DNA from: an uncultured Phycisphaeraceae bacterium
GTDB lineage: Bacteria > Planctomycetota > B15-G4 > JADJEK01
Direction: 5' to 3'
DNA: 38,036 bases
Assembly (NCBI GenBank): GCA_964649825.1
Contig: CAZYQW010000109.1
Coordinates: forward strand, 1-38,036
Part shown: in pieces, positions 1 to 37,363 of the stretch
Layout of the letters: the number at the start of each line of letters is the position of its first letter
Position numbering within the stretch: the first letter of the stretch is position 1
Notes under the pieces: generated by a model
Seen by the model: only the letters and a program-made list of their open reading frames with translations
Told to the model about the DNA's origin: nothing
Database searches by the model: none
Translations under genes and position numbers: made by a program

Positions 1-233
1 TTCTCCGGGGCCCTCGTCATCGCTTGCTGCGTTGCTCCTCCTCGACGTATCTCGAATACGCGGTCGTCGTCGCGCCTTGCCAGCGACGACGATGACCTCC
101 GGATAATCCACCAACAATCTGAATCACACCACTAGGCTCTCCGATCCGCGCCGCGCGGCCAGGACGCTCTTCGTCGGGATGACCGGTCCTCGATGGCGGC
201 GCGCATCGAATCCACCGGGAAGCGGACGGCAGC

Positions 234-3200
234 ATGACGGGTGACGCCAAGCAGGGCGCGGACGACGAGTCACGCGATCGCCTGGAGGCGTTGATCGCGG
301 CGTGCATCGAGCGCATGGACGAGGGCGACACCGCCTCCGTCACCGCGCTGCTGGATCGCGAGCCGGCGCTGGCCGACCGGGCGCGGGAGGTGCTCGCGTC
401 CCTGATGCATGTGGGAATGGTCGGCGCCGACCGCGTCGCGCCGGACCTCGAGGGGTCGCTCGGCGAGTACCGGCTGCTGCGGCGCCTCGGCTCGGGCGGG
501 ATGGGGACGGTCTACCTCGCGCGCCAGGAATCGCTCGGCCGGCTGGTGGCGGTCAAGGTCGCGCACGCCGAGGCCGACACCACCATCGAGGTCGAGCGCT
601 TCCGGCGCGAGGCGCGCGCGATCGCCTCGCTCCGCCACCCGAACATCGTCCACGTGTTCGGCGTCGGCGAGGTCGACGGGCGGCACTACCTCGCGATGGA
701 GTACATCCCCGGCCGCAGCCTCGCGGAGTGGATGAGGTCGGACCCGATCCCGGTGCCACGGGCGCTGGAGTGGATCCGCCGGATCGCCCTCGCGCTGCAC
801 GTTGCTCACGACAAGGGGATCGTCCACCGCGACGTCAAGCCGACGAACATCCTGATCGACGACCGCCTGCGGCCGTTGCTGGTCGACTTCGGGCTGGTGC
901 GCGAGGCGGGCGCCTCCGAGCTCACGCGCAGCGGGAGTTTCGTCGGCTCCCCGATGTACGCCGCCCCGGAGCAGATCGCCGGAAACGCCGCGATCGGACC
1001 GCGGAGCGACGTCTATTCGCTGGGCGTGACGCTGTACGAGCTCGTCGCCGGCCGTCCGCCGTTCGTTGGCGAGACCACCGAGCGGCTGTTCCACCAGATC
1101 CTGACCGCAACCGCGCCGGCGATCCGCGAACTCCGGCGCGACGTCTCGCGCGACCTGGAGGTCGTGATCCATCGTGCGATCGAGTGCGACCCCGCGCATC
1201 GGTACGCGAGCGCCGCGGAGTTCGCGCGCGACCTGGAGGCGTTGCTCGAGCTGCGCCCGATCGCCGCGCGGCCGCCGGGGCTCGCGCGGCGGGGGAGCCG
1301 CTTCCTCCGCGCGCACCCGGTTGCGAGCACCGCCGGCGCGGTGGCCGCGCTCGCGATCGCGGCGTTCCTCGCGGTCTCGCTGTGGCAGTCCGCGGCGGAG
1401 GCCCGGCGCCGGCGCGACCTCGCGCGGGAGGCGATGGATCGGGCGCGAGGCGAGCTCGCTCACGTCGACTCGGCGGGCGCCCCGCGCGCGGAGGACCTCG
1501 CGGCGCGCCGCGATCGCCTCGCGCTCCGCTATCAGCCGGACGAGGCGTGGGACGCCCTCGACCGCGCGGCCCACGCGCTCCATGTCCACACGGACCGGGC
1601 CGAGACACGACTGGCGGGCGCGCTGCGGGATCTCGATCGCGCGGAGCAGCTCGGCGCCGCGCGCGCGTCCGTCGACGAGCTGCGCGCGCTCGTCCACCTC
1701 GAGCGCTGGCGCTTGTCGCGGCGGGCCGGGGAGCGCCGCGCGAGCGACTACTACCGGCGACAGATCGAGCGGTACGACGCGGCGGGCAGACACCGGGCGG
1801 AGCTGCTCGGACTCGGCGCGGTGCGGTTCGACAGTGATCCGCCGGGAGCGGACGTGTTCCTCTTCCGGCTGGTCGACCGGATGCAGTTCGACGCCGAAGG
1901 GGAGTCGCGGCTTGTGCCGACCCCGAACCGCGAGGGAGATCCACCCGTCGCGCCGGGAGCGCTGTGCATGCGGGTGTGGCGGGACGCGCCTCCGCTCCGC
2001 GAGTCGGACCTCGTCGTCGAGGTCGCCGGCGTCCCGGTCGATGGCGCGGTCGTCGTCGTGCGGGGGGACGGAGCCGGCGTCGAGCCGGGCGATCTCCTGG
2101 CAACCGTCGACGGCGTCGCGGTCCGGTCGACGGAGGACGCGAGCCTCCGGATCGTCACGAAGGCGACGTCGGGCGGGAGCGTCCCGGGCGATGGTCCGGA
2201 GAGCGAGGTGGGCTTTGTCGGCCGTGACGGGCGGCAGGTGACGCGACGCTGCCGCCACATCAGGGAACTCGGGATCGGAGCGCTCGATGCGCGCTCGCTC
2301 GCGGAGCGCGGAGACGTCGACGCGGTCGTGCTGCGCGACGGCGAGCGTGTGCTCCTGCGGCTGCCGCACGACCCTCCGCTGCGCGCGACGACCTCCCCGC
2401 TCGCGATGAGCCCGGAGTGCCACGCTGCGTCCACGCCGGCCGAAGCCATCGACCTGCAGGAGGGGCCCTGGATCGCGGTGTTCCGCGCCAATGAGCGCCA
2501 TCACGCCGTCGTGCCGTTCGACGTCGTCGCCGGAGCGGAGACCGAGGTCGCCGCGGACCTGATTCCGGTGGGCGGGATCCCGGGCGGGTTCGTGGCGATC
2601 ACCGGTCGGAGCGAGGCGGTGGAGACCCCGTTCTTCCTGCAGGAGCACGAGGTCACCTTCGAGCAGTACCTCCCGTTCCTCAACGACCCGGAGATCCAGG
2701 CGGAGATCGACGCGTCCGCGACGCCGATCCTCTATCCGCGCGAGCTGGACAACGCGCGGAGCGTCGGCTTTCTCGCGCGCGAGGCGGACGGCCGGTTCGT
2801 CCCGCGGTTTCCGCAGCAGGCGAAGCTGCCGCTGCCCGGCGTCTCCTACAAGGACGCGACGGCCTTCGTGAGCTGGATGAACCGGCGCGCGGAGGGCGTC
2901 GGGGCCCCTTGGCGGTTCGACCTGCCGACCCTCGCCGAGGTCGACCACGTCCGACAGGCGTCGCGATACCGCGCGTACCCGACCGGTCCGTCCTTCCGGC
3001 CGCACTGGTTCAACGGGTATTTCACCGGACCGGAGGCTTCGCTGCGTCCGGTGTTCTGGACGCCGCAGGACGAGGTGCCGCCCGGGGTCTTCAACCTCGC
3101 GGGCGGCGTCTCGGAGTGGGTGAAGGACTGGTACGACGAGGGGAACCGGCTGCGCGTGACGATCGGCGGGAGCTGGATGAGCACTGATCCGCACGAGTTC

Positions 3201-3281
3201 CGGCTGGATCATCGCGGGTTCCTCGGCGAAGACACATACGCCAACAAGTGGGGCTTCCGGCTCGTCGCGCGCCCTCGCTGA
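234..3281 (+). CDS. Transmembrane Ser/Thr protein kinase with C-terminal formylglycine-generating-enzyme (FGE/SUMF1-like) domain
   Basis: N-terminal Hanks kinase motifs (GSGGMGTVYLA, VAVK, HRDVKPTNILID, DFGLVRE, APE). One TM helix near aa 365-390. C-terminal region matches the FGE-sulfatase fold (GVFNLAGGVSEWVKDWY ... GGSWMSTDPHEFRLDHRGF). Conserved STK N-terminal helix motif shared with the kinase at 33907-36804. Confidence 0.85.
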   Translation: MTGDAKQGADDESRDRLEALIAACIERMDEGDTASVTALLDREPALADRAREVLASLMHVGMVGADRVAPDLEGSLGEYRLLRRLGSGGMGTVYLARQESLGRLVAVKVAHAEADTTIEVERFRREARAIASLRHPNIVHVFGVGEVDGRHYLAMEYIPGRSLAEWMRSDPIPVPRALEWIRRIALALHVAHDKGIVHRDVKPTNILIDDRLRPLLVDFGLVREAGASELTRSGSFVGSPMYAAPEQIAGNAAIGPRSDVYSLGVTLYELVAGRPPFVGETTERLFHQILTATAPAIRELRRDVSRDLEVVIHRAIECDPAHRYASAAEFARDLEALLELRPIAARPPGLARRGSRFLRAHPVASTAGAVAALAIAAFLAVSLWQSAAEARRRRDLAREAMDRARGELAHVDSAGAPRAEDLAARRDRLALRYQPDEAWDALDRAAHALHVHTDRAETRLAGALRDLDRAEQLGAARASVDELRALVHLERWRLSRRAGERRASDYYRRQIERYDAAGRHRAELLGLGAVRFDSDPPGADVFLFRLVDRMQFDAEGESRLVPTPNREGDPPVAPGALCMRVWRDAPPLRESDLVVEVAGVPVDGAVVVVRGDGAGVEPGDLLATVDGVAVRSTEDASLRIVTKATSGGSVPGDGPESEVGFVGRDGRQVTRRCRHIRELGIGALDARSLAERGDVDAVVLRDGERVLLRLPHDPPLRATTSPLAMSPECHAASTPAEAIDLQEGPWIAVFRANERHHAVVPFDVVAGAETEVAADLIPVGGIPGGFVAITGRSEAVETPFFLQEHEVTFEQYLPFLNDPEIQAEIDASATPILYPRELDNARSVGFLAREADGRFVPRFPQQAKLPLPGVSYKDATAFVSWMNRRAEGVGAPWRFDLPTLAEVDHVRQASRYRAYPTGPSFRPHWFNGYFTGPEASLRPVFWTPQDEVPPGVFNLAGGVSEWVKDWYDEGNRLRVTIGGSWMSTDPHEFRLDHRGFLGEDTYANKWGFRLVARPR

Positions 3282-6241: not shown

Positions 6242-6317
6242 GATCGTCCGCGGCGGTTGAGAGGATGCGCGCCCTGGTAGGGCATCACGGGTCGAGCCGC
6301 GTGGCGCGGGAGGGAAC

Positions 6318-6848
6318 GTGAACGGACCTCGAACGAACGGCTCCCGGCGATCGCGGCGCACCACGCTCGTCGTGGCGTTGCTCGCGGGGCTGGCTGGAAT
6401 GGCCGCGTACGCGTTCCACTACGCCGAGGGGAGCTCCTATCTGAGCACCGATCCACGCGCGTGCACCAACTGCCACATCATGCAGTCGCAGTTCGATTCC
6501 TGGCAGAAGGCGAGCCATCACACCGCCGCGACCTGCGTCGACTGCCACCTTCCGGCGGAATTCCCGGAGAAGTACTTCGCCAAGGCGAAGAACGGCTGGA
6601 ACCACTCGAAGGCGTTCACGCTGCAGAACTTCCACGAGCCCATCCGCATCACCGAACCGAACGCCGAGATCCTCCAAGACAACTGCCTCAGATGCCACGG
6701 AGGAATCACCAGCGACATGGTCGCGGGCGCGACGACGCACGCCGACGCGGTTCGCTGTGTGCACTGTCATCGAACCGTCGGCCACGGGGAACCGGTCGGC
6801 CTCGGCGGACCGTTCGATCGCACCGAGATTCCAGAGGAAGACGAATGA
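6318..6848 (+). CDS. nrfH: Cytochrome c nitrite reductase small subunit NrfH (NapC/NirT-family tetrahaem quinol dehydrogenase)
   Basis: N-terminal TM helix. Four CxxCH haem motifs (CTNCH, CVDCH, CLRCH, CVHCH). GTG start after GAGGGAA. Stop overlaps the nrfA start (ATGA). Confidence 0.9.
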
Positions 6849-8284
6849 CACGATCATCGACTCGCGGCACGGTTTCCCCGCTCACCCTGTTCATCATCGT
6901 CGTCGCCGCCGCCCTCGGGGCGGCGGGCGCGCTTCTCATCGCGAACATCGCCGAGCGCAAGGCCGAGTCGAGGGCGACGCACGTCCGGGTGCGCGACGTC
7001 ACGGAGGACACGACCGATCCCGCGGTGTGGGGCGAGAACTGGCCGAAGCAGTACGACGCCTACCAGCGCACCGCGATCGCGACGCGCACGCGCTTCGGCG
7101 GACACGGCGGCAGCGAGGCGATGCCCGAGGAGAAGATCGACCGCGACCCGTGGCTGAAGCGGATGTTCCTCGGCTACGCCTTCTCGATCGACTATCGCGA
7201 CCGGCGCGGACACGCGTTCATGCTGCACGACCAAGAGCAGACGAAACGGCTGAACGTGCCGCAGTCCGGATCGTGCCTCCACTGCCACGCGTCGGTGATG
7301 CCGCTGTATCGCTCTCTCGGCGACGGCGACGCGATGAAAGGGTTCGAGAAGACGTACGAGATGTCGTACCAGGAGCTGAGCCAGAAGCTCCACGACGACG
7401 GGCACGCGCATCCGGTGTCGTGCGTCGACTGCCACGATCCCGACTCGATGCAGATCCGCGTCACGCGACCCGGGTTCGTCCACGCGATCCAGGCGCTGGC
7501 CGCGAGCGACGCGCCGACCCCGCACCTCCCCTCGATCGATCGGTGGCGCGCGGGGCCGCGGTCCTCGCCGTACGATCCGAACCAGGACGCATCGAGGCAG
7601 GAGATGCGCAGCTTCGTCTGCGGGCAGTGCCACGTCGAGTACTACTGCTCGACCAAGTTCAAGCTCACGTTCCCCTGGGCGCGCGGCTTGACCGTCGAGG
7701 ACGCCGAAGCGGTCTGGAACGAGACGCGCTTCAGCGACGGCGGTCGCTTCTACGATTACAAGCACAAGGAGACGGGGGCCGAGATCCTCAAGGCCCAGCA
7801 CCCCGAGTTCGAGCTCTGGAGCCAAGGGATCCACGCTCGAAGCGGCGTCGCGTGCGCGGACTGTCACATGCCGTATATGCGCGAAGGCGCGACCAAGATC
7901 TCCGACCATTGGGTCCGCAGCCCCCTTCTGAACATCAATCGCGCGTGCCAGACCTGCCACCACTTCTCGGAGGACGAGATCTCGAAGCGCGTCGACCTGA
8001 TCCAGTCGAAGAACCACGAGCTGCTGCAGCGCGCCGGCGCCGCTCTGATGGACCTCCTCGACGCGATCCTCGAGGCGAAGGAGGCGGGCGCCGACGCGAA
8101 CGCCCTCCTCCCCGCCCTCGAGCTCCAGCGCAAGGCGCAGTGGCGGCTCGACTTCATCGCGGCCGAGAACTCGATGGGCTTCCACGCCCCCCAGGAAGCG
8201 GCCCGCATCCTCGGCGAATCCGCGGACTACGCTCGCCAGGGTCAAGTGGCGGCGTTACGCGCGAAGGCGGCAGCCGGACGCTGA
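6845..8284 (+). CDS. nrfA: Cytochrome c nitrite reductase catalytic subunit NrfA (pentahaem, ammonia-forming)
   Basis: Signal/TM anchor. Five haem motifs, all CxxCH (CLHCH, CVDCH, CGQCH, CADCH, CQTCH), with no CxxCK. Typical NrfA blocks (KxRH-type active-site region; [12 protein letters not shown]). Confidence 0.9.
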
Positions 8285-10441: not shown

Positions 10442-10519
10442 GGTGGGTGTAGCTCAGTTGGTTAGAGCGCCACACTGTGGCTGTGGAGGTCGCGGGTTCA
10501 AATCCCGTCACTCACCCCA
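10442..10519 (+). tRNA. tRNA-His (anticodon GTG) with extra 5' G(-1)
   Basis: Cloverleaf read manually. Acceptor GTGGGTG/CACTCAC. D-arm GCTCAGTTGGTTAGAGC. Anticodon loop CTGTGGC. T-arm GCGGGTTCAAATCCCGT. Discriminator C, then CCA. Confidence 0.85.
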
Positions 10520-10560
10520 TCCTCACGACCTGCGACCGAGACCACCGTCGAACCCAAGGT

Positions 10561-10637
10561 GCGCCCGTAGCTCAACTGGATAGAGTATCGGGCTTCGAAC
10601 CCGAGGGTTGCAGGTTCGAGTCCTGCCGGGCGTACCA
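10561..10637 (+). tRNA. tRNA-Arg (anticodon TCG)
   Basis: GCGCCCGTAGCTCAACTGGATAGAGTA. Anticodon stem TCGGG/CCCGA with loop CTTCGAA. T-arm GCAGGTTCGAGTCCTGC. Ends ...CGGGCGTACCA. Confidence 0.85.
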
Positions 10638-10660
10638 ACTCCCTTGCTCCTCCCCCTATC

Positions 10661-10700
10661 CCATCGGTCCCCATCGGTCCCCATCGGTTGCCAGCGGTTG
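10661..10700. repeat. 10-bp tandem repeat (ccatcggtcc x ~4, last copies degenerate) between tRNA-Arg and tRNA-Lys
   Basis: ccatcggtcc ccatcggtcc ccatcggttg ccagcggttg, seen directly. Confidence 0.8.
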
Positions 10701-10866
10701 CACTGGGCCCTCCGGTCTCGGCCGCGTGACCTGTGAACATGGGATCACCGAAACGCGCCGTCGAGCGGGCGGCCAAGCTTCTCGATCGCGACCTTGACAC
10801 GGAATCGAGTTCCGCTAAAAGAGCAGGTTTCCCTCCCGACCGCGGGAGGCGATGGCGGAAACGCGG

Positions 10867-10942
10867 GCCCTCTTAGCTCAGTTGGTAGAGCAGCTGATTC
10901 TTAATCAGCGGGTCGTAGGTTCGAGTCCTACAGAGGGTACCA
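10867..10942 (+). tRNA. tRNA-Lys (anticodon CTT)
   Basis: Acceptor GCCCTCT/AGAGGGT (G1-U72 wobble). D-arm GCTCAGTTGGTAGAGC. Anticodon stem GCTGA/TCAGC with loop TTCTTAA. T-arm GTAGGTTCGAGTCCTAC. ACCA 3' end. Confidence 0.85.
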
Positions 10943-14398: not shown

Positions 14399-14483
14399 GC
14401 GAGGATGGCGGAACCGGCAGACGCGCCAGATTTAGGATCTGGTGGGGCAACCCGTGGGGGTTCGAGTCCCCCTCCTCGCACCA
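14399..14483 (+). tRNA. tRNA-Leu (anticodon TAG), class II with long variable arm
   Basis: GCGAGGATGGCGGAACCGGCAGACGC D-arm. Anticodon stem CCAGA/TCTGG with loop TTTAGGA. Long variable arm. T-arm GGGGGTTCGAGTCCCCC. ...TCCTCGCACCA. Coordinates are +/-1 because local base counting was ambiguous. Confidence 0.8.
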
Positions 14484-14630: not shown

Positions 14631-17018
14631 TCACCCGGGCCACGTCCAGTCGCGGTGCCGCGGCGCGTCGACGCCGTGGCACCACGCGTAGTTCCGGCTG
14701 TCGATCTGCATGTCGCGCAGATCCTCCTTCACGTGCGCGCCGCCGACACGGAGGCGCGGCACCCGGTCGATGACGTCGATCGCCAGGCTGAACCGGTCGA
14801 TCTCGTTGGCGATCGCGAGCTCGAGCGGCGTGTTGATCGCGCCGCGCTCCTTGTAGCCGCGGACGTGGAGGTTCCGGTGGTTGGTGCGCCGGTAGGCGAG
14901 CCGGTGGATCAGCCACGGATAGCCATGGAAGTTGAAGATGATCGGCTTGTCGGTGGTGAAGAGACTGTCGAAGTCGCGATCCTCCAGGCCGTGCGGATGC
15001 TCGGAGGCGTGCGTCATCCGGAACAGGTCGACGACGTTGACGAAGCGGATCTTGAGGTCGGGGAAACGCTCGCGGAGCAGCGCGACCGCGGCGAGCGCCT
15101 CCTGGGTCGATACGTCGCCGCAGCTCGCCATCACGACGTCCGGGTCGGCGCCCTGGTCGTTGCTCGCCCAATCCCAAATGCCGATCCCTTTGGTGCAATG
15201 GCGGACGGCGGCGTCCATGTCGAGATACTGGAGATGGCGCTGTTTGTCCGCGACGATCACGTTCACGTCGTTCGTGCTGCGCAGACAATGATCGGCGACG
15301 GAGAGGAGCGTGTTCGCGTCCGGCGGCAAGTAGATGCGGGTAACGGACGGGCTCTTGTTCACCACGAGGTCCAGGAAGCCGGGATCCTGGTGGGTGAAGC
15401 CATTGTGGTCCTGGCGCCAGACGGTGGACGTGATCAGCAGGTTCAACGACGAGATCGGCGCGCGCCACGGCAGGCGCGCCGACATGTCGAGCCACTTGGC
15501 GTGTTGGTTGAACATCGAATCGATCACGTGGACGAACGCCTCATAGGTCGACAAGAAGCCGTGGCGCCCGGTCAGCAGGTATCCCTCGAGCCAGCCCTCG
15601 AGGGTGTGCTCCGAGAGCATCTCCATCACGCGCCCGTCGGCGGCGAGTTCGCTGCCGTCCGCGTCCTCGGGCAGCATGTCGGCGAGCCAGGTCTTCTTGG
15701 TCGCCTCGTAGACGGCGTCGAGCTTGTTCGACTTCGTCTCGTCCGGTCCGAACACGCGGAAGTTGTCCGGGTTCTTGCGCAGCACGTCGCGCAGGAGCGC
15801 TCCCAACGGCCGCGTCGGCTCGGCCCGGCTCCCGCCCGGCTGGCCGACGGTGAGTGCGTACTCGCGGAAGTCCGGCATCCGCAGCGGCCGGCGGAGCAGC
15901 CCGCCGTTGGCGTGCGGGTTCGCGCTCATGCGTCGCGTGTCCGCCGGCGCCAGCGCACGCAGCTCGGGGACCAGCCTCCCCGCGTCGTCGAAGAGCTCCT
16001 CGGGATGGTAGCCGCGGAGCCACTGCTCGAGCTGCTTCAGGTGCGCGGGGTTCTCGCGCACCGCGGCGAGTGGAACCTGGTGCGCGCGGAAGAAGCCCTC
16101 GACCTTGTGGCCGTCGACCACGGCCGGCCCGGTCCAGCCCTTCGGGCTCCGGAGCACCAGCATCGGCCACCGCGGACGCGAAGGAGTACCGGTGCGACGC
16201 GCCTCCTCCTGCACCCGGCGGATCTCGAGCACGCAACGCTCCAACGTCCCCGCCATCGCTTGGTGCATCGTCCGCGGATCGTCGCCCTCGACGAAGTGCG
16301 GGGTCCAGCCGTAGCCGCGAAACAGCGCGTCGAGCTCCGCGTGCGAGATGCGCGCGAGCACCGCCGGATTGTGGATCTTGTACCCGTTGAGGTTGAGGAT
16401 CGGCAGCACGGCTCCGTCGCGAATCGGGTTCAGGAACTTGTTCGAGTGCCACGCCGTCGCGAGCGGCCCCGTCTCCGCCTCACCGTCCCCCACCACCACC
16501 GCCACGAGCAGCTCCGGGTTGTCGAACGCCGCCCCGAACGCGTGCGCCAAGCTGTAGCCAAGCTCGCCGCCTTCGTGGATCGAGCCGGGCGTCTCCGGCG
16601 TGCAGTGGCTGCCGATGCCGCCCGGGAAGGAGAACTCCTTGAAGAAGGTCCGCATCCCCGCCTCGTCCTCGCTCTTGTTCGGATAGACCTCCGCGTACGT
16701 CCCCTCGAGGTAGACGGGGCCGAGCACGCCCGGCGCGCCGTGGCCGGGACCCGCGAGGAAGATCGCGGAGAGGTCGTACGCACGGATGAGCCGGTTCAAG
16801 TGCACATAGATGAAGCTGAGGCCGGGGCTGGCCCCCCAATGGCCGAGCAATCGCTCCTTCACGTGCGCCGCATCGAGCGGCTTGCGCAGCAGCGGATTGT
16901 CCCGGAGATAGATCATGCCCGCGGCAAGATAGTTGCATGCGCTCCAGTACGCGTGGAGCGCATTCAGCTCGTCTTCGGCCAGGGGCTCGCCGCCCGCCGC
17001 TGGATGCGGGTTCGCCAT
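14631..17018 (-). CDS. xfp: Xylulose-5-phosphate/fructose-6-phosphate phosphoketolase
   Basis: Phosphoketolase signatures EGGELGYS and [23 protein letters not shown]-binding GDGE region. ~795 aa from the MANPHP start, which has a GGAGG SD. Confidence 0.9.
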
Positions 17019-17095
17019 CGGAGGCACCTCCATTCGTTTCGCGTGGTCGTTTCGACCACGGTATCGGAGCGGTCCAAAGGGAGTACGCAAGACTC

Positions 17096-27901: not shown

Positions 27902-28122
27902 CCATATCCTCCTGGTGCGTGATGTGGCTCGAATTCGGCCGCTCGCTCGCCGGATTTCCATCCGCAGCTCGTTGTTCCCGCGGCCCGACTACTTGGCTCC
28001 CGTTCAACCCGAGTGCCAGCAACTTCGACGTTGATCGGCGATTCGAAGTTCGAACCTGAGAAAAAACGTGGGAAGCGACTTACGTTTGTTCGCCACACGC
28101 CGCGAAGAGATGAGAGGTATCC

Positions 28123-28668
28123 ATGTCGTGGATTCGAACGGTCGTTCCCGACGACGCCGATCCGGAGCTCGCCCGCGCGTACGACCGAGTTCGCGACCCC
28201 GAGTCGGGTCAGCTCGACCACATCATGCAGGTCCATTCTCTGCACGTCGCGGGTCTGCATGCGCACTACGGTCTCTATGCGGCGGTGATGCGCGGCACGA
28301 GGCGCCTCCGGAAGGTCGACCGCGAAATGATCGCGCTCGTCGTCAGCCTCGAGAACGAGTGTCGCTACTGAGTGGCGCATCATCGGCGCGGTCTGCGCCG
28401 AGCGCTCCGCGACGACGATCTCGCTGCCTCGATCGAGCACGACTTCGAGCGCGCAAGGCTCGATGATCGCCGGCGCGCGATGCTGCGTTTCGCGGTCCAG
28501 CTCACGCGATCGCCGGGGCGCATGCGCCGGGCCGACGTCGACCAGCTCCGCGCGGCCGGGTTCTCGGACGTCGACGTGCTCCACATCGTCGAGGTGACGG
28601 CCTACTACGCATACGCGAACCGGATCGCCGACGGGCTTGGCATCGAGCTCGAGTCCAGCCCCGATTGA
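28123..28668 (+). CDS. AhpD/carboxymuconolactone-decarboxylase (CMD) family selenoprotein; in-frame TGA (28369-28371) read as selenocysteine
   Basis: Two same-frame ORFs are separated only by TGA. Read through, they give a full-length ~181-aa CMD/peroxidase-related protein. The TGA lies exactly at the second Cys of the family motif N-x-C-x-Y-C-x-x-x-H (here NECRY-U-VAHH). Confidence 0.7.
28384..28400 (+). promoter_or_regulatory. Candidate bacterial SECIS hairpin (cggcgc-GGUCU-gcgccg), 12 nt downstream of the UGA
   Basis: A 6-bp GC stem with apical loop GGUCU. Spacing and loop sequence resemble the E. coli fdhF SECIS apical stem-loop (..GCAGGUCUGC..). Confidence 0.5.
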
Positions 28669-30280: not shown

Positions 30281-31390
30281 TCACCGGGACGGCCGTCGGC
30301 GGGCCGCCCCCACCGAGAACTCCGCGATCACGCGGGCGTTTCCCTTCGCGCGCGCGACGTCGAGCGGCGTCTTTCCGTCGGCGTCGCGCGCGCGCGCGTC
30401 CCCGCCGGCCGCGAGCAGGGCGCGCAGAGCCCGCACGTTCCCGCGCGACGCCGCCTGATGAACGGCCGTCCAGCCGTGGCCGTCCGCGACGTTCGGACTC
30501 GCGCCGCGCGCCAACAGCGCGAGCGCCGGTCCGAACTGCCCCCAGCGGACCAGGTCGTTCAGGAGCGGGCGGTCGCCTTGGACCGCCCGGTCGACGTCGG
30601 CCCCGAAGCGGAGCGCAACGTCGATCGCCCCGGCGTCGTGGTTCCACGCCGCCGAGGGCAGCGCACGTGTCGCGTCCGCGCCGCGCTCGAGGAGGAGCTC
30701 GAACAGGTCGAGGTGTCCGGCCGACGCCGCGAAGTACGCCACGTCGACGATCTCCGACCAGCTCTTCACCGTCGCGTTCGGGTCCGCGCCTGCATCGAGG
30801 AGCGCGGCCGCGATCTCGAGGCGGTCGCGATCGCTCTTCGCGTCGCCACGCCCGACGCGTGACGCCGAGACGCACATCAGCGCGGTCACCCCCCCTCCGT
30901 CGCGCGCCGTCGCCGAACGGGCGTCGACCTCGACGGCTCGGCGTATCGCGGCCACGTCGAGAAACGCGGCGGCCGCGAACACGTCGACCGCGCGGCCGCG
31001 TGACGGCTTCGGCCGCAAGCGCCGGACGAACGCGTCGAGCCCCGTGAACGCCGCGACGAGCACGGCGCGCGCGGACGGCCAGCCGCCGAGCGCATCGACG
31101 TCAGCGCCGCTCTCGAGGAGCATCTCGAGACATCGCAGCCGCTCCTGCGACGGCTCGTCCCGCGAGCCGTGCGGCCGCTCCTGGATCAGGGCGTGAAGCG
31201 GACGGTATCCGCGGTGCGTCCCGTTCGGATCCGCGCCGCGCGCGAGGAGCAGGCCGAGCACTTCCGGCCGCGCGACTCGGGCCGCCTCGACGATGAGCCG
31301 CCCCTTCGCCACCCACTCCGGTCTCGCGTCCAGCGCCCGCGCGAGGAGACCTTCGTCGCCCGCTTTGACCGCTTCGACCGCGTCCTTCAT
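30281..31390 (-). CDS. Ankyrin-repeat protein
   Basis: Multiple ANK repeats (G-TPLH/A..G....V..LL..GAD.NA), e.g. GWTAVHQAASRGNVRALRALLAAGGDARARDADGKTPLDVA. GGAGG SD before MKDAVEAV. Confidence 0.8.
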   Translation of the reverse strand: MKDAVEAVKAGDEGLLARALDARPEWVAKGRLIVEAARVARPEVLGLLLARGADPNGTHRGYRPLHALIQERPHGSRDEPSQERLRCLEMLLESGADVDALGGWPSARAVLVAAFTGLDAFVRRLRPKPSRGRAVDVFAAAAFLDVAAIRRAVEVDARSATARDGGGVTALMCVSASRVGRGDAKSDRDRLEIAAALLDAGADPNATVKSWSEIVDVAYFAASAGHLDLFELLLERGADATRALPSAAWNHDAGAIDVALRFGADVDRAVQGDRPLLNDLVRWGQFGPALALLARGASPNVADGHGWTAVHQAASRGNVRALRALLAAGGDARARDADGKTPLDVARAKGNARVIAEFSVGAARRRPSR

Positions 31391-31493
31391 GATCGAGCCT
31401 CCGTGAAACGCCATCACCCCATCGGATTGTATTCGCGCGCGAGCCGCTACGATCGTGCGAGCCTGCTGCCCGCTTCTCCCAACGGCAAGTCCC

Positions 31494-32816
31494 ATGACGA
31501 TCATGCTCGCCCTCCTCGCCTGCCTCGCGTCCGGAATCGAATGGAGTCACTCGTACGACGAGGCGATCGCACGCGCGAAGGAGCAGAGCAAGGTCGTGTT
31601 CATCGCGATCAACATGGACGGCGAACGCGCCAACGACACGATCGCCGCGAAGGTGTACTCCGACAAGGCGATCGTCGACCTGACGCACGCAACCGTCAAC
31701 TTGATCGCGTCGAACGACGAGCACAAGGGCGGCACCAAGTCCTGTCCGCGCTTCGCCGGAATCCCTTGCTCCGCCCACGTGGCGGTCGACGTCGAGATTC
31801 GCGGCACCGTGGTCAAGTCGACGGCGGCGGGTTGGGTGATCGCACCGCAGCACGTGTTCTTGCGGCCGACCGGCGAGGTGATCCTGTCGGTACCGTACAC
31901 GGTCGACGCGAGCGAGCTGACCTGGTGCTTCCTCGAGGCGCAGCGCGCCGTCGACCCGTCGTTCAAGACGCGCGGCGGCCGGGCCCCCAAGCGGCTCGTG
32001 GTGGGCTCCGTCTTCGACCCGGGAGGCGGGGACGAGTCAGGAGTGATGAGCCGCGAGCGCGCCCTGGAGCTGCTCGAGGAGGCGAAGCGGACCTCGCACG
32101 ACGAGATGTCGAACCTGTTCTACCGGCTCATCACCGCGGACGAGCCCGAAGCACGCGCGTTCGCGAAGACGCAATTCGGCGCGAAATGGATGACGTACTA
32201 CGGAAACGACACGCTCGCGAAGAGCGTTCGCGCCGTCGGGGAGACGTCGCCGGCCTCCTACTGGGAGGTGATCCTCCAGCAGACGAAGGACGGCGACCCG
32301 AAGATCCGCCGCGAAGTCGCGGTCGCGATGGAGCAGCTCGCGGCTCCGGAGTCGCTCAAGGACGTGACGGGCGCCTACAAGAAGGAGAAGGAGGTGAGCG
32401 TCCAGAAGGAGTGGATCCGCGCGCTCGGCACGGTCGGCCCGTCGAGCTCGGCCGCAAGGAAAGAGCTCATGAAGGTGGCGCAGAGCGAGAAGGCCAAGAA
32501 CCTGCTCCTGCGCAAGAACGCGATCCTCGCGCTCGGATCGCTCGACCTCGACGAGGCGCTCGCCGCGGCCCTCGAAGGCTGGCTCGGCGACGAGAATCCC
32601 GAAGTTCGTCGCGCGGCCGCGTGCGCGATGGCGATCTCGCGCGATCCGCGATTCCTCGGCTCCCTCCAGGCCCGTACCGGCGACGTCGAAGCGAGAACGA
32701 CGATCGACGTCGCCATCGCGGCCTTGAAGGGCGAGGGGAAGCTGAAGGACCTCGGGACGGAGGTGGCCGCGGTCGGCGAGGACGAAGTGCCGCGCCAGCG
32801 GATCTTCGGGTGGTAG
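31494..32816 (+). CDS. Exported thioredoxin-fold domain protein fused to HEAT/PBS-lyase-type repeats
   Basis: Signal peptide MTIMLALLACLASG. N-terminal Trx-like fold segment (SYDEAIARAKEQSKVVFIAINMDGE..) but no CxxC motif (nearest Cys pair is CPRFAGIPC). C-terminal repeats (PKIRREVAVAMEQL, ENPEVRRAAACAMAI). Confidence 0.55.
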   Translation: MTIMLALLACLASGIEWSHSYDEAIARAKEQSKVVFIAINMDGERANDTIAAKVYSDKAIVDLTHATVNLIASNDEHKGGTKSCPRFAGIPCSAHVAVDVEIRGTVVKSTAAGWVIAPQHVFLRPTGEVILSVPYTVDASELTWCFLEAQRAVDPSFKTRGGRAPKRLVVGSVFDPGGGDESGVMSRERALELLEEAKRTSHDEMSNLFYRLITADEPEARAFAKTQFGAKWMTYYGNDTLAKSVRAVGETSPASYWEVILQQTKDGDPKIRREVAVAMEQLAAPESLKDVTGAYKKEKEVSVQKEWIRALGTVGPSSSAARKELMKVAQSEKAKNLLLRKNAILALGSLDLDEALAAALEGWLGDENPEVRRAAACAMAISRDPRFLGSLQARTGDVEARTTIDVAIAALKGEGKLKDLGTEVAAVGEDEVPRQRIFGW

Positions 32817-33906: not shown

Positions 33907-36804
33907 TCAGTCCTCGCCGGCGGGACTCGCGCGGTCCAGCGTGCCGAGCCGAGCCTTCCAGCGCCACACCTCCTCGGGCCGAAGTCGCTCGTACAGGGCG
34001 ATCAACGCCACGATCGGCTTCTCCAGCTTCGGGCTGACCGGACCGAACCGGTCGCAGTGGCGTACGTACGACTCCAAGAGGTACGGCTCGGCCCGCTCGG
34101 GCCCGCCGGCGAGAAGGAGCTCCCCGCCCGCGTTGTGCAGCGCGAACAACGCGTCGTCGCCGTTTCGCTCCCGTTCGTCGGGCTGGAGCTCGAGCCAGGC
34201 GGCGTAGTGCATCGCGCGCGCGACGCGCGATCCGCCGGCCTTCCCGTGGAGCATCCCGAGGTCCCAGTGGGCGCGGCGAAGCTCGCCGAACGGGTCCTCC
34301 TCATGATGCCGCCGCATGAACGCGAGGGCTCGTTCGAGGTAGTCGATCGCGAGCTCGAACCGGCCGTAGTGGTGCATGATGACGCTGTATGCCCGCAGCG
34401 CGCGAGACCACATCAGGCTCGACCTCTCCGCCGTCGCCTCCAACAGAACCAGCGCCTCGTACGCGATCGGCTCGGCCTCGCCGAGCCGGCCCGTGCGGAA
34501 CCGATACTCCGCGCAGTTCAGCATCGTCTCCGCCACGTCGAGGGAGAGCTCGCCGCTCGACCGGCGCCGGCGATCGAGCGCGTCGTCGACGAGGGTGATC
34601 GCTTCCGCGAAGTTCCGCTGATCGGCCAGCGTGCGCGCGAGGAGTACCTGCTGCGTCAGCGTCTCCGGATGGTCCGGACCCATCACCGCGCGGCTTCTCG
34701 CCAGCACGTCCCGATAGAGCGTCTCGGCCTCGGCGACCCGTCCCTGCTTGTGTCGAAGCTGTGCGACGTTCCCACGCGTGATCAGCGTGTTGGGATGATC
34801 CGGGTCTCTTCGCAGGTGGAGCTCGAGGGCTCGTTCGAGCAGCGGGCCCGCCTCCTCGAAGCGGCCCCCGATCAGCAGGACGAACCCGAGGTTGTTCAGC
34901 GGCTCACACAGTCGTGGCGAGTCCGACCCGGCGACGCGCGTGATCCCGCCGACGGCGGCGCGGAACCACGTCTCCGCCTCGGCGAGCCGGTTCTGTGCCC
35001 GATAGACGCCGCCGATGTCGTTCTGCGCCGCGAACACCTCGACGTCCTCGTCGCCGCGGACGCGCCGCAGGATCTCGAACCGGCGCATGAGGACGGTGTG
35101 CGCAAGCTCGAGGCGGCCGGCGGTTTTGTGGATGACGGCGAGAACGTACAGCGTGTCGGTGTACCTCGGGTCTTCCTCGGCGAGACGCGCGCCGAAGATC
35201 TCGAGCGCGCGTTCCGCGTGTTCCAGCGCCGGGTCGAGCACGCCGAGGTGCGCGTAGACCCGTCCGATCGTCTGGTGAATCCGACCCGCGATCAAAGGAC
35301 GCTCGCCGAACCGCTCCTCCACGCCGGCCGCGCTCCGGTCGACGACGTCGCGCACCGTTTGATCGCGTGAGCCGTGCCATGGATCGCCGGACGAGAGCAT
35401 CTCGGTCAGGAAACCGGCGGTCACCTCCGCGTCGGCGAGCCCACGCTCCGCGTCCGCCTGCGCGCGCTCGGCAGCGGAGCGTTCGCGCTCGGCGTCGGCG
35501 CGTGCCACCTTGGCGTCCTCCAGCGAGCCGAGCGTGATGACGAGCGCGATCGAGAGCGCGACGAGCACCGCGGCCGTCGCCGCGACCGGGATCCGGTTGC
35601 GCTGCACGAACCGCGTCGCCCGGTAGATGACGGTGTCGCGCTGCGCCCGGACCGGGCGGCCGTCCACGAACCGTCGCAGGTCCTCGGCGAAGTCATGCAC
35701 GCTCGCGTAGCGCCGCGATGGATCGACGCGAAGCGCCATCATGACGATTCGATCGAGGTCGCCCCGCAGGGTCCGGCCCAGCGCCTTCGAGGTCGTCCGT
35801 CGGCGACGTGCGCACTCGACGGCGTCGTAGTCCGTCTGGCGCGACGCCGCGCCGCCGTCGACGGCGTAGCTCGGCGGCGCCGGCGGCTCATCGTTCACCA
35901 ACCGTTCCATCTCCGCCGGCGACAGCGACGAAAGGTCGTGTGGAAGGCGCCCCGTCAGGAGCTCGTACAGCACGACGGCAAGCGAATACTGATCGCTCGG
36001 CGGCCGGATCGTCGCCCGCCGGAACTGCTCCGGGCTCGCGTACGACGGGGTCATGTAGCCGAGCGAGTCGGTGGTCAGGGTGAGATCGCCCCCCAGCTTC
36101 TCCGGACTCAGGACTCCGGCGAGCCCGAAGTCGAGCAGTTTGGGATCGCCGTCGGGCCCGACCAGGATGTTCCCCGGCTTGAGGTCGCGGTGAATGACTC
36201 CGTTCTTGTGGGCGTGCTCCACCGCGCCGCAGACCTTGACGAAGATGCCGATGCGCTCGCGCACGTCCAACTCCGCGGCGTCGCAGTAGCGGTCGATCGG
36301 CACGCCGTCGACGTACTCCATGACGAGGTACGGAACCCCGTCCGCGTCGGCGCCGGCGTCGATCAAGCGCGCGATGTTCGGATGGACGAGCGCGGCGAGG
36401 ACGCGACGCTCGCGCCGGAAGCGGGACAGGACTTCTCCCGAGTCGAGGCCGGGGCGCACGCGCTTCACGGCCACTGTGCGGTCGAACGTGCCATCGATCC
36501 GCCGAGCGAGGAAGACCTCGCCCATTCCGCCCGCACCGATCGGCTCGCCGAGCTCGTACGCGCCGATCCGACGGGTACGCCCGGGGCTCTCGAGCACCTC
36601 GGAGTAGGCGGGGAACACCACGATCGGGTCGAGCGCGGCCTCCGACTCCTCGACCGCGATCAGACCCTCGATTTCGCGCAGCAGATCCGGATTGCCGTAC
36701 GTCCGCTCACGAAGGAACGCGCGGCGCTCGTCGGCGGGGACATCGAGGGACTCCTCGAAGAGCTGCAGCACGCGACGCTGGCGATCCGGGTCGCGCTCAG
36801 TCAT
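33907..36804 (-). CDS. Transmembrane Ser/Thr protein kinase with C-terminal TPR repeats
   Basis: Kinase motifs (GAGGMGEVFLA, VAVK, HRDLKPGNILV, DFGLA, SPEQ). One TM helix. ~550 aa of TPR-like repeats. Start overlaps the upstream ECF sigma stop by 8 nt. Confidence 0.85.
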   Translation of the reverse strand: MTERDPDRQRRVLQLFEESLDVPADERRAFLRERTYGNPDLLREIEGLIAVEESEAALDPIVVFPAYSEVLESPGRTRRIGAYELGEPIGAGGMGEVFLARRIDGTFDRTVAVKRVRPGLDSGEVLSRFRRERRVLAALVHPNIARLIDAGADADGVPYLVMEYVDGVPIDRYCDAAELDVRERIGIFVKVCGAVEHAHKNGVIHRDLKPGNILVGPDGDPKLLDFGLAGVLSPEKLGGDLTLTTDSLGYMTPSYASPEQFRRATIRPPSDQYSLAVVLYELLTGRLPHDLSSLSPAEMERLVNDEPPAPPSYAVDGGAASRQTDYDAVECARRRRTTSKALGRTLRGDLDRIVMMALRVDPSRRYASVHDFAEDLRRFVDGRPVRAQRDTVIYRATRFVQRNRIPVAATAAVLVALSIALVITLGSLEDAKVARADAERERSAAERAQADAERGLADAEVTAGFLTEMLSSGDPWHGSRDQTVRDVVDRSAAGVEERFGERPLIAGRIHQTIGRVYAHLGVLDPALEHAERALEIFGARLAEEDPRYTDTLYVLAVIHKTAGRLELAHTVLMRRFEILRRVRGDEDVEVFAAQNDIGGVYRAQNRLAEAETWFRAAVGGITRVAGSDSPRLCEPLNNLGFVLLIGGRFEEAGPLLERALELHLRRDPDHPNTLITRGNVAQLRHKQGRVAEAETLYRDVLARSRAVMGPDHPETLTQQVLLARTLADQRNFAEAITLVDDALDRRRRSSGELSLDVAETMLNCAEYRFRTGRLGEAEPIAYEALVLLEATAERSSLMWSRALRAYSVIMHHYGRFELAIDYLERALAFMRRHHEEDPFGELRRAHWDLGMLHGKAGGSRVARAMHYAAWLELQPDERERNGDDALFALHNAGGELLLAGGPERAEPYLLESYVRHCDRFGPVSPKLEKPIVALIALYERLRPEEVWRWKARLGTLDRASPAGED

Positions 36805-37363
36805 CCGCGAGCGCCTTCTGGAGCCACACGCGTGCCGACTTCCAGCGCCGCTCCGCCGTGCGGAGCTGCAGCCCGAAGTGCTCCGCGACGTCCGCCATGT
36901 CGACGCCCCCGAACAGCCTCATCTCGGCGATCTGCCCGAGCTGCTCGTCGATCTCCTCGAGCCGCTTCAACGCATCGTCGAGCACGAGGACGTCGTTCCC
37001 CGTCGCCGGCTCCGACGGCCCGGACTCGACGGACAGCGTGACGTCGCGCACCGCCCCGCCCCGCCGTTTCGCGCCCCGGCGACGCGCGTGGTCGACGAGC
37101 AGCGACCGCATCACCCGTGACGCCAGCGCGTAGAACTGCCGGCGGCTCTCCCAGTGGCCCGCTTCCGGCCGGATCAGCCGGATCCACGCGTCGTGCACGA
37201 GTTCGGTCGGGTTCAACGTGTGGTTCGCCCGCTCGTTCCCCAGGTGGCGTTGCGCGAGCTTGCGGAGCTCCGCGTGCAGGATCGGCGCGAACTCGTCACG
37301 CGCCCGCGCGTCGCCCTCGCACAGGCGTTTCAGAAGCTCCGTTGCGTCCGGTCCAGTGGCCAT
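36797..37363 (-). CDS. ECF sigma-70 factor of the Ser/Thr-kinase-associated family (TIGR02999-like)
   Basis: N-terminal TELLKRLCEGDARARDEFAPILHAELRKLA. Region 2 (HDAWIRL) and region 4 HTH (EIAEMRLFGGVDMADVAEHFG). Forms an operon with the downstream kinase. Confidence 0.85.
   Translation of the reverse strand: MATGPDATELLKRLCEGDARARDEFAPILHAELRKLAQRHLGNERANHTLNPTELVHDAWIRLIRPEAGHWESRRQFYALASRVMRSLLVDHARRRGAKRRGGAVRDVTLSVESGPSEPATGNDVLVLDDALKRLEEIDEQLGQIAEMRLFGGVDMADVAEHFGLQLRTAERRWKSARVWLQKALADD

What the first reader, a model, noticed from the sequence alone, without database searches (positions are those of the whole stretch)
28372..28410. SECIS-like hairpin 12 nt downstream of the UGA, with an fdhF-like GGUCU apical loop
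Right after the TGA comes gtggcgcatcat, then cggcgc-ggtct-gcgccg: a perfect 6-bp GC stem with loop GGUCU. Bacterial SECIS elements lie ~11 nt 3' of the UGA and present a G/U-containing apical loop to SelB. The E. coli fdhF SECIS apical region is GCAGGUCUGC. The position and sequence here fit that arrangement.
Basis: partly seen in the sequence, partly recalled or inferred. Interest (0 to 1): 0.6.

Follow-up and report, generated by a model that had tools for sequence, protein, structure and literature searches.

The report
Selenocysteine insertion hairpin in AhpD-like gene
The hairpin is real and is very probably the RNA signal that makes the ribosome read the in-frame UGA of an AhpD-like peroxidase-related gene as selenocysteine. 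This is a well-supported but ordinary example of a selenoprotein family known since 2005.

Summary
The in-frame TGA at 28369-28371 is followed by an 11-nt spacer. Then comes a perfect 7-bp hairpin at 28383-28401 (U-CGGCGC / GGUCU / GCGCC-GA, -12.6 kcal/mol).

Folding energy alone is not beyond chance in this 69% G+C contig, so the comparative data decide:
- All 80 orthologues fetched have TGA at the same codon. They come from MAGs labelled Acidimicrobiia, Planctomycetota and Acidobacteriota.
- The core GCGC-GGUCU-GCGC is almost invariant, even at synonymous sites. GGT is used in 95% of sequences against 16% background, CTG in 100% against 28%, and CGC in 96% against 38%.
- Compensatory changes occur lower in the stem.
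- Cys-containing homologues carry CxYC where this protein has CRY-U, and they lack both the RRGLR peptide and the hairpin.
- GGUCUGC occupies nucleotides 22-28 after the U of UGA, exactly as in E. coli fdhF. The bulged U of fdhF is absent.
- All four criteria of the published bacterial SECIS consensus are met.

The host gene (28123-28668) belongs to TIGR01926, the AhpD-like CxxU selenoprotein family described in 2005. The source record splits it into fragments. No Sec machinery lies in the contig, so incorporation is inferred. Verdict: a new member of a known kind, of low interest.

The parts
28123..28668 (+). Complete selenoprotein gene: 181 codons plus a terminal TGA at 28666-28668. The in-frame TGA is codon 83. 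The product is an AhpD-like / peroxidase-related enzyme of the CMD superfamily with redox motif C80-R-Y-U83-x-x-H-H.
   Evidence: Two same-frame ORFs, 28123-28371 and 28372-28668, are separated only by the TGA. The joined product matches TIGR01926 (3e-39, 134.6 bits against a cutoff of 81.8, residues 2-174) and Pfam CMD. Both halves are conserved in 80 loci.
28112..28117 (+). GAGAGG, a Shine-Dalgarno-like purine run 5 nt before the ATG at 28123 (inference only).
   Evidence: Read directly from the sequence. Not tested further.
28360..28362 (+). TGT, Cys80, the first residue of the CxxU redox motif.
   Evidence: It aligns with the first Cys of CxYC in PDB homologues 2pfx, 3c1l, 6k40 and 2oyo.
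28369..28371 (+). In-frame TGA read as selenocysteine (U83).
   Evidence: TGA sits at this codon in 80 of 80 orthologues. It aligns with the second Cys of CxYC in Cys homologues. TGA is the ordinary stop of 14 of 20 other genes in the window.
28372..28382 (+). 11-nt spacer between the UGA and the base of the hairpin. It codes V-A-H-H.
   Evidence: No indel occurs here in any of the 81 aligned sequences. E. coli fdhF has the same 11-nt spacing (PMC8659212).
28383..28389 (+). 5' arm of the SECIS stem (UCGGCGC).
28390..28394 (+). Apical loop GGUCU. G23 and U24, counted from the U of UGA, are the presumed SelB contacts.
   Evidence: Four loop positions are invariant in all 81 sequences. The U is 95% conserved although it is the wobble base of a Gly codon. 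The register is the same as in fdhF.
28395..28401 (+). 3' arm of the SECIS stem (GCGCCGA).
28372..28410 (+). Optional lower helix (GUGG.CG pairing with CG.CCGC) that extends the structure towards the UGA in this sequence only.
   Evidence: It is present in the MFE fold, but the orthologues show no consistent lower helix, and RNAalifold keeps only the upper four pairs.

Best explanation
The hairpin at 28383-28401 is a bacterial selenocysteine insertion sequence (SECIS) embedded in the coding region of an AhpD-like (TIGR01926) selenoprotein gene.

The proposed mechanism has three steps:
1. When the ribosome reaches UGA 28369-28371, the stem-loop 11 nt downstream is still folded outside the mRNA channel.
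2. Its GGUCU loop (G23, U24) is bound by the C-terminal domain of SelB carrying Sec-tRNA(Sec) and GTP. This delivers selenocysteine in competition with RF2.
3. Translation continues to the true stop at 28666-28668.

The product is a 181-residue redox protein whose active site is C80-x-x-U83 in place of the CxxC of the Cys homologues.

Because the element lies inside the reading frame, it also fixes the peptide R-R-G-L-R (residues 88-92) and its codons.

Shown here: the structure, its position, its conservation and covariation, its strict co-occurrence with TGA, and the Cys/Sec alignment. Inferred: SelB binding, Sec incorporation, and peroxidase-related activity.
For: 1. Sequence and fold. A 7-bp perfect stem with a 5-nt GGUCU loop folds at -12.6 kcal/mol, with pair probability 0.81-0.99.

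2. Conservation of the TGA. All 80 loci from genome contigs have TGA at the same codon. They share 52-66% amino-acid identity with the query and come from MAGs labelled Acidimicrobiia/Actinomycetota, Planctomycetota, Acidobacteriota and others. Protein sequence is conserved on both sides of the TGA.

3. Pairing. 86.6% of cells are paired, against 17.7-49% when the 3' partners are slid by 1-3 columns. No shuffle in 500 reached the observed covariation score or the observed number of cells changed on both sides. Pair 24-36 occurs as GC, GU, AU and CG. Pair 21-39 occurs as CG, UA and UG.

4. Synonymous sites. Codon entropy at R88, R89, G90, L91 and R92 is 0.92, 0.23, 0.32, 0.00 and 1.12 bits. The other conserved columns of four- and six-codon amino acids tabulated give 1.4-2.4 bits, apart from one Ala column at 1.10. 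GGT is used in 77 of 81 sequences against 16% background, CTG in 81 of 81 against 28%, and CGC in 78 of 81 against 38%. The expected chance of the upper four pairs given the peptide is 0.11, whereas about 91% of sequences have them.

5. Cys homologues. The solved structures and about 90 Cys-form representatives have CxYC at this position and a variable peptide in place of RRGLRR. Two Cys-form loci (TGT, TGC) have no comparable hairpin, folding at -7.3 and -7.7 kcal/mol. Six Sec forms from other clades each have a hairpin of their own; in two of them it is an 8-bp stem with a GGUC loop 25 nt after the UGA.

6. Same register as E. coli fdhF. The published roles of G23 and U24 and the 11-nt spacing are in PMC8659212.

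7. All four bSECIS consensus criteria quoted in PMC13188914 are met.

8. The AhpD-like CxxU family is an established selenoprotein family with predicted SECIS elements (PMC1088965, PMC2398784, PMC13188914).

9. TGA is the normal stop codon in this contig, so the genome has no general reassignment of TGA.
Against: - No selA, selB or tRNA-Sec was found in the window or in the roughly 3-kb flanks of the orthologues searched. The Pfam scans of the window showed no selD-type domains. The genome's capacity for Sec is therefore assumed, not shown.
- The fold is not more stable than shuffled sequence.
- No Rfam family matches.
- The bulged U17 that E. coli SelB needs is absent.
- The stem positions that never vary say nothing about pairing.
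- Conservation of the G-L dipeptide could in part reflect protein function.
- The sequences are related, so the shuffle and binomial figures overstate independence.
Confidence: 0.9

Rival explanations
1. A chance G+C-rich hairpin next to a genuine stop codon. On this view 28123-28371 and 28372-28668 are two separate small genes or a broken pseudogene, and the structure has no function.
For: The fold's z-score is not significant. Perfect 6-7-bp hairpins are frequent in this contig, at 213 and 71 on one strand. The public record and the Logan gene calls treat the 82-aa N-terminal piece as a separate protein.
Against: The same TGA occurs at the same codon in 80 of 80 orthologues from several phyla, with both halves under protein-level conservation. 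The joined product matches TIGR01926 end to end. Most close homologues in the database (115 of the 120 listed) are 99-116-aa C-terminal fragments, which is the signature of systematic truncation at a Sec codon.
Confidence: 0.02
2. The nucleotide conservation is a by-product of protein constraint plus codon bias. On this view the peptide HHRRGLRR is needed by the enzyme, and its preferred codons happen to be self-complementary.
For: Arg-Arg-Gly-Leu-Arg-Arg is intrinsically prone to self-pairing (CGN CGN GGN CUN CGN CGN). The probability of six pairs given the peptide and background codon use is about 9%. Stem positions 25-27 and 33-35 almost never vary, so they give no covariation.
Against: Wobble positions are frozen to codons that are minor elsewhere in the same genes: GGT at 95% against 16%, CTG at 100% against 28%. 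This holds also in orthologues whose flanking sequence is visibly A+T-richer (for example L059, L065, L073 and L078). Where the wobble of R88 changes, R92 changes with it: G-C goes to A-U, C-G and, in the TTA variant L082, U-A. Cys-form homologues of the same fold do without this peptide.
Confidence: 0.03
3. The hairpin promotes recoding of UGA, but not by SelB and Sec. Examples would be structure-stimulated near-cognate read-through inserting Trp, Cys or Arg, or another regulatory RNA or protein-binding function such as pausing or mRNA stability.
For: No Sec machinery could be located in the contig. Incorporation was not tested. Some pipelines translated the codon as W (P0001-P0004).
Against: The UGA aligns with the catalytic second Cys of CxxC, which is the classic Cys/Sec replacement. 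The loop and register are those of the SelB-binding fdhF element. The family is catalogued as a selenoprotein. A Trp at a redox-active Cys position would inactivate the motif.
Confidence: 0.05

Closest known systems
Bacterial SECIS of E. coli fdhF (formate dehydrogenase H, Sec140)
   Same: - A stem-loop inside the coding region that begins 11 nt after the UGA.
- GGUCUGC occupies nt 22-28 counted from the U of UGA in both, so G23 and U24 are in identical positions. In both genes these bases are the codons GGU-CUG (Gly-Leu) seven and eight codons after Sec.
   Different: - fdhF has a 4-nt loop GGUC closed by A21-U26 and a bulged U17 that is required for SelB binding.
- Here the loop is 5 nt (GGUCU) closed by C21-G27, and the stem is a perfect, more stable 7-bp G+C helix without a bulge (-12.6 against -4.2 kcal/mol for the minimal elements).
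- The lower helix that includes the UGA is not conserved here.
- The host protein is unrelated.
AhpD-like selenoprotein family (COG2128 / TIGR01926, CxxU). Described by Zhang, Fomenko and Gladyshev 2005 (PMC1088965), called 'AhpD-like 1' in the GOS survey (PMC2398784), and listed in PMC13188914 and BSepDB (PMC13326102).
   Same: The same protein family (TIGR01926, 134.6 bits), the same CxxU motif aligned to the CxxC of Cys homologues, and a predicted bacterial SECIS directly downstream of the UGA.
   Different: Nothing essential differs. This copy is an unannotated (split) member in a 38-kb MAG contig. Its clade has a particular, almost frozen SECIS core, GCGC-GGUCU-GCGC. Other Sec-containing clades of the same family use other hairpins at other distances, for example an 8-bp stem with a GGUC loop 25 nt after the UGA.
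Cys-containing peroxidase-related / AhpD-core proteins with solved structures (PDB 2pfx, 3c1l, 6k40, 2oyo, 2prr)
   Same: They are homologous over almost the whole length (E values 3e-26 to 1e-17). The CxYC...H motif sits at the same place as C80-R-Y-U83...H87.
   Different: They have Cys (TGT or TGC in the two Cys-form loci sequenced) instead of Sec. The following peptide is HGAAVRQ or HGAALRE rather than HHRRGLRR. The two Cys-form loci examined have no SECIS-type hairpin.

Membership tests
Bacterial SECIS (consensus model quoted in PMC13188914) | Apical loop of 3-9 nt on an upper stem of 4-16 bp | tested here: met
   The loop is 5 nt (28390-28394) and the stem is 7 bp (28383-28389 with 28395-28401). 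The upper 4 bp are kept in about 91% or more of the 79 distinct orthologue sequences.
Bacterial SECIS (consensus model quoted in PMC13188914) | At least one G in the first two loop positions, usually G followed by G or U | tested here: met
   The loop begins GGU. Both G's are invariant in all 81 sequences.
Bacterial SECIS (consensus model quoted in PMC13188914) | [quoted passage not shown] | tested here: met
   The distance is 18 nt (11-nt spacer plus 7-nt arm). It is identical in all 81 sequences, with no indels.
Bacterial SECIS (consensus model quoted in PMC13188914) | Minimum free energy of -7.5 kcal/mol or lower | tested here: met
   The 19-nt hairpin folds at -12.6 kcal/mol and 28369-28420 folds at -22.2 kcal/mol.
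Bacterial SECIS (functional definition) | Follows an in-frame UGA that aligns with Cys in homologues, with the reading frame conserved on both sides | tested here: met
Bacterial SECIS (functional definition) | Binds SelB and directs selenium-dependent UGA decoding | not testable with these tools
   This needs a reporter assay, a binding assay or mass spectrometry.
Bacterial SECIS (functional definition) | The genome carries selA, selB, selC (tRNA-Sec) and selD | tested here: inconclusive
   Only 38 kb of the genome is available. No tRNA-Sec was found. tblastn found no SelA or SelB homologue in the window or in the loci held at that point. ARAGORN found no tRNA-Sec in L001-L060. The Pfam scans showed no AIRS/SelD-type domain. 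Absence from a fragment proves nothing.
E. coli fdhF-type SECIS (17-nt minimal element, PMC8659212) | Upper stem-loop starts 11 nt after the UGA, with G23 and U24 in the loop | tested here: met
   GGUCUGC lies at nt 22-28 in both.
E. coli fdhF-type SECIS (17-nt minimal element, PMC8659212) | Bulged U17 on the 5' side of the stem | tested here: not met
   Position 17 is a G paired with C31. The stem has no bulge, and none is conserved in the orthologues. The element works like fdhF's but is not a copy of it.
AhpD-like selenoprotein (TIGR01926, CxxU) | Scores above the curated TIGR01926 cutoff over the full length | tested here: met
   134.6 bits against a cutoff of 81.8, covering residues 2-174 of 181.
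AhpD-like selenoprotein (TIGR01926, CxxU) | CxxU motif at the position of the catalytic CxxC, followed by the conserved His | tested here: met
   C80-R-Y-U83-V-A-H-H aligns with CFYCLVAH, CYYCLTAH and CVYCAVSH of the PDB homologues.
Rfam RNA families (release 15) | Match to a curated covariance model | tested here: not met
   Only tRNAs reach gathering score in the window. Around the site there are only chance-level hits with E of 0.17 or higher.

The most novel reading that the evidence does not exclude
The SECIS of this clade is a bulge-less hairpin whose 13-nt core, GCGC-GGUCU-GCGC, is frozen across at least three phyla and has written the peptide R-R-G-L-R into the enzyme.

If SelB proteins of such different lineages all accept it without the bulged U that E. 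coli SelB needs, two things would follow. It would define a minimal, portable and broadly recognised bacterial SECIS. It would also indicate that the gene and its signal spread together by horizontal transfer.
Probability: 0.3. Interest if true: 0.35.

Novelty: new member of a known kind. Interest (0 to 1): 0.2.

Why it matters
In practice this corrects an annotation. The contig's record and public gene calls split one 181-residue selenoprotein into an 82-aa piece and a roughly 98-aa piece. The same error affects most of the listed homologues in the databases.

Scientifically it adds a clean, quantitatively documented case of dual coding. An RNA signal inside a reading frame freezes synonymous sites and probably dictates five residues of the protein. 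It also shows that the G23/U24 register of E. coli fdhF recurs in a distant protein family and in distant phyla.

It does not open a new question, because the family and its SECIS-dependent decoding have been catalogued since 2005.

Tried and rejected
- Thermodynamic significance. Shuffle z-scores of -0.36 and +0.42 show that folding energy cannot discriminate in 69% G+C sequence. I dropped it as evidence.
- Rfam. Neither the gathering nor the permissive search returned a SECIS family. The weak hits (MIR531, veev_FSE and others) are chance.
- Full-length query for the search of protein representatives. I used P0004 instead.
- Sec machinery. The search of the window and flanks for tRNA-Sec, SelA and SelB found nothing. 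This is uninformative given the short sequences.
- Second selenoprotein or second GGUC-loop SECIS. In the window and in about 0.5 Mb of flanking loci, only out-of-frame or terminal-stop artefacts turned up.
- Conserved lower helix including the UGA, as in fdhF. It is present in some sequences, including the window, but is not conserved.
- Taxon of the contig. Exact look-ups gave only an unnamed NCBI contig and the Logan run SRR10083321. I ran no further search on it.

Full report
**1. What is in the sequence**

On the + strand an ORF starts at ATG 28123 and runs to an in-frame TGA at 28369-28371. The same frame stays open to a terminal TGA at 28666-28668.

The text around the TGA is tgt cgc tac TGA gtg gcg cat cat cgg cgc ggt ctg cgc cga.

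U28383 and A28401 add a seventh pair, so the helix begins 11 nt after the UGA and the loop begins 18 nt after it.

**2. Is it more than chance?**

The hairpin is in the minimum-free-energy structure of 28369-28420 (-22.2 kcal/mol). It folds at -12.6 kcal/mol on its own, and its pair probabilities are 0.81-0.99 even in the context of the whole mRNA.

Dinucleotide shuffles fold equally well, with z-scores of -0.36 and +0.42. The 69.4% G+C window contains 71 perfect 7-bp and 213 perfect 6-bp hairpins on one strand. From these counts I estimate that a suitable hairpin would follow any given TGA about 7% of the time.

Comparative data are needed.

**3. The host gene**

Joined across the TGA, the 181-residue product matches NCBIfam TIGR01926, 'peroxidase-related enzyme'. 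The match has E = 3e-39 and 134.6 bits against a cutoff of 81.8, and covers residues 2-174. It also matches Pfam CMD.

The solved Cys-containing homologues 2pfx, 3c1l, 6k40 and 2oyo align over almost the whole length. They place their CxYC motif exactly on C80-R-Y-U83. The UGA therefore replaces the second redox Cys.

**4. Orthologues**

A scan of one genome per species returned 80 loci at 52-66% amino-acid identity. They come from MAGs labelled Acidimicrobiia/Actinomycetota, Planctomycetota, Acidobacteriota and a few others.

All 80 have TGA at the homologous codon, with conserved protein on both sides.

In the protein database, 115 of the 120 listed close homologues are 99-116-aa C-terminal fragments. 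Four full-length calls carry W at the Sec position, meaning the gene was called with a code in which TGA is Trp. This is the usual signature of a mis-annotated selenoprotein.

In this contig TGA terminates 14 of 20 other genes, so the codon is not generally reassigned.

**5. The RNA structure in the orthologues**

The 81 sequences align without a single indel between the TGA and the hairpin.

For the 7-bp helix, 86.6% of cells are standard pairs. This falls to 17.7-49% when the 3' partners are slid by 1-3 columns. No shuffle in 500 reaches the observed covariation score or the observed number of cells changed on both sides.

| Pair (alignment columns) | Pair types observed |
|---|---|
| 24-36 | GC 51, GU 13, AU 6, CG 3 |
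| 21-39 | CG 22, UA 12, UG 5 |
| Three pairs next to the loop | Essentially invariant (C-G, G-C, C-G) |

RNAalifold independently keeps the upper four pairs.

**6. Synonymous sites**

In a codon alignment of the 81 genes, conserved columns of four- and six-codon amino acids have codon entropies of 1.4-2.4 bits at all but one of the columns tabulated (one Ala column gives 1.10 bits). At R88, R89, G90, L91 and R92 the values are 0.92, 0.23, 0.32, 0.00 and 1.12 bits.

| Codon at the site | Use at the site | Background use in the same genes |
|---|---|---|
| GGT (Gly90) | 77 of 81 | 16% |
| CTG (Leu91) | 81 of 81 | 28% |
| CGC (Arg89) | 78 of 81 | 38% |

Given the peptide and background codon use, the upper four pairs would form in about 11% of sequences. 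They form in about 91%.

The binomial figures overstate independence because the sequences are related. However, the saturation of the other synonymous sites shows that shared ancestry does not explain the freeze. This rules out the explanation by protein constraint plus codon bias.

**7. Controls with Cys forms and other clades**

About 90 Cys-form representatives of the family have CxYC followed by variable peptides such as HHSRGLSR, HHGEALR and AHGAAVRQ. None has HHRRGLRR.

In metagenome loci, two Cys forms (TGT, TGC) have no comparable hairpin, folding at -7.3 and -7.7 kcal/mol over 48 nt. Six Sec forms from other clades each carry their own hairpin, at -12.6 to -22.3 kcal/mol. Two of these have an 8-bp stem with a GGUC loop 25 nt after the UGA.

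Hairpin and TGA thus go together, and different clades have different elements. That pattern is expected for SECIS elements. It is not expected for a protein-driven motif.

**8. Comparison with E. coli fdhF**

The sequence was taken from NC_000913.3. In fdhF the TGA is followed by cacggcccatc (11 nt) and then ggttgcaggtctgcacc.

Counting from the U of UGA, GGUCUGC occupies nt 22-28 in both fdhF and this gene. G23 and U24 therefore coincide. The review PMC8659212 names these loop bases, together with the bulged U17, as the conserved positions of the element, with U17 and G23 as the SelB-binding sites.

The differences are these:
- fdhF has a 4-nt loop closed by A-U and the bulged U17.
- Here the loop has 5 nt, closed by C-G.
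- Here position 17 is a paired G, and the stem is a stronger perfect helix (-12.6 against -4.2 kcal/mol).

**9. Membership**

All four criteria of the bacterial SECIS consensus quoted in PMC13188914 are met. The loop is 5 nt against the required 3-9, the stem is 7 bp against 4-16, the first two loop bases are GG where at least one G is required, the spacing is 18 nt against 16-37, and the MFE is -12.6 kcal/mol against a ceiling of -7.5.

The element is not an fdhF-type copy, because the bulged U is absent. No Rfam model matches.

The AhpD-like CxxU family was described as a selenoprotein family with predicted SECIS elements in 2005 (27 sequences, PMC1088965). It was among the most abundant families in the GOS survey (299 sequences, PMC2398784). 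It is listed under TIGR01926 in a 2026 review and in BSepDB.

**10. What remains inferred**

No tRNA-Sec, SelA or SelB was found in the 38-kb contig or in the flanks of the orthologues searched. The Pfam scans of the window showed no SelD-type domains. These are fragments, so the absence is uninformative.

SelB binding, selenium dependence and enzyme activity were not and could not be tested here.

**11. Verdict**

It is a SECIS element of an unannotated member of a known selenoprotein family.

Interest is low (0.2). The only mildly unusual points are:
- the near-invariance of a 13-nt core across phyla;
- the exact fdhF register without the bulged U;
- the clear evidence that the RNA signal dictates the RRGLR peptide.

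Noticed in passing
L082 2001-2549 (NCBI GCA_024275815.1, JAJRYI010000263.1); protein P0005: One orthologue has TTA (Leu) instead of TGA at the Sec codon. Its hairpin is intact and even compensated (CGU CGC GGU CUG CGA CG). It differs from TGA by one base, so it is either a sequencing or assembly error or a very recent loss of Sec.
   Followed up: partly
P0001-P0004 (JGI/ENA gene calls); P0127, P0137 and P0200 (G at the site); P0142, P0168, P0171 and P0247 (W at the site): Several database proteins of this family carry W or G at the Sec position. The most likely reason is that the gene callers used codes in which TGA is Trp or Gly. These are hidden selenoproteins mistranslated in public collections.
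   Followed up: no
L084-L087 and L089-L090 (metagenome contigs): Other Sec-containing clades of the AhpD-like family use different downstream peptides (AHADDLR, SHAEFLR) and different hairpins. L085 and L087 have an 8-bp stem with a GGUC tetraloop 25 nt after the UGA. SECIS elements therefore appear to have diversified within one protein family.
   Followed up: partly
window 28123-28371 and 28372-28668: The window is a complete 38,036-nt NCBI contig. The same locus also occurs on a 10.6-kb Logan contig from run SRR10083321. The collection holds the N-terminal 82 aa as a protein in its own right, so the selenoprotein gene is split in the annotation.
   Followed up: yes
window 183-3281 (+) and 33907-36918 (-): There are two large Ser/Thr protein kinases, one fused to an FGE-sulfatase domain and one to long TPR arrays. 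Ankyrin-repeat and HEAT-repeat proteins lie at 30281-31546 (-) and 31407-32816 (+). This gene content is typical of large, high-G+C environmental genomes. The taxon was not determined.
   Followed up: no
window 6281-8284 (+) and 14631-17093 (-): A cytochrome c552 (NrfA-type nitrite reductase, E = 2e-122) and a full-length phosphoketolase (XFP) are encoded in the contig. tRNA-His, tRNA-Arg and tRNA-Lys lie at 10443-10942, and tRNA-Leu lies at 14399-14483.
   Followed up: no
L052 1860-1951: ARAGORN called a 92-nt 'tRNA-Arg(gcg)' that overlaps the SECIS hairpin of that orthologue. This is almost certainly a false positive caused by the G+C-rich stem-loop.
   Followed up: no
L028 3459-3469: In this orthologue the loop is GGGCU at the SECIS site, and an exact CGCGGTCTGCG 11-mer occurs about 200 nt further downstream within the same gene. 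This is probably coincidence.
   Followed up: no
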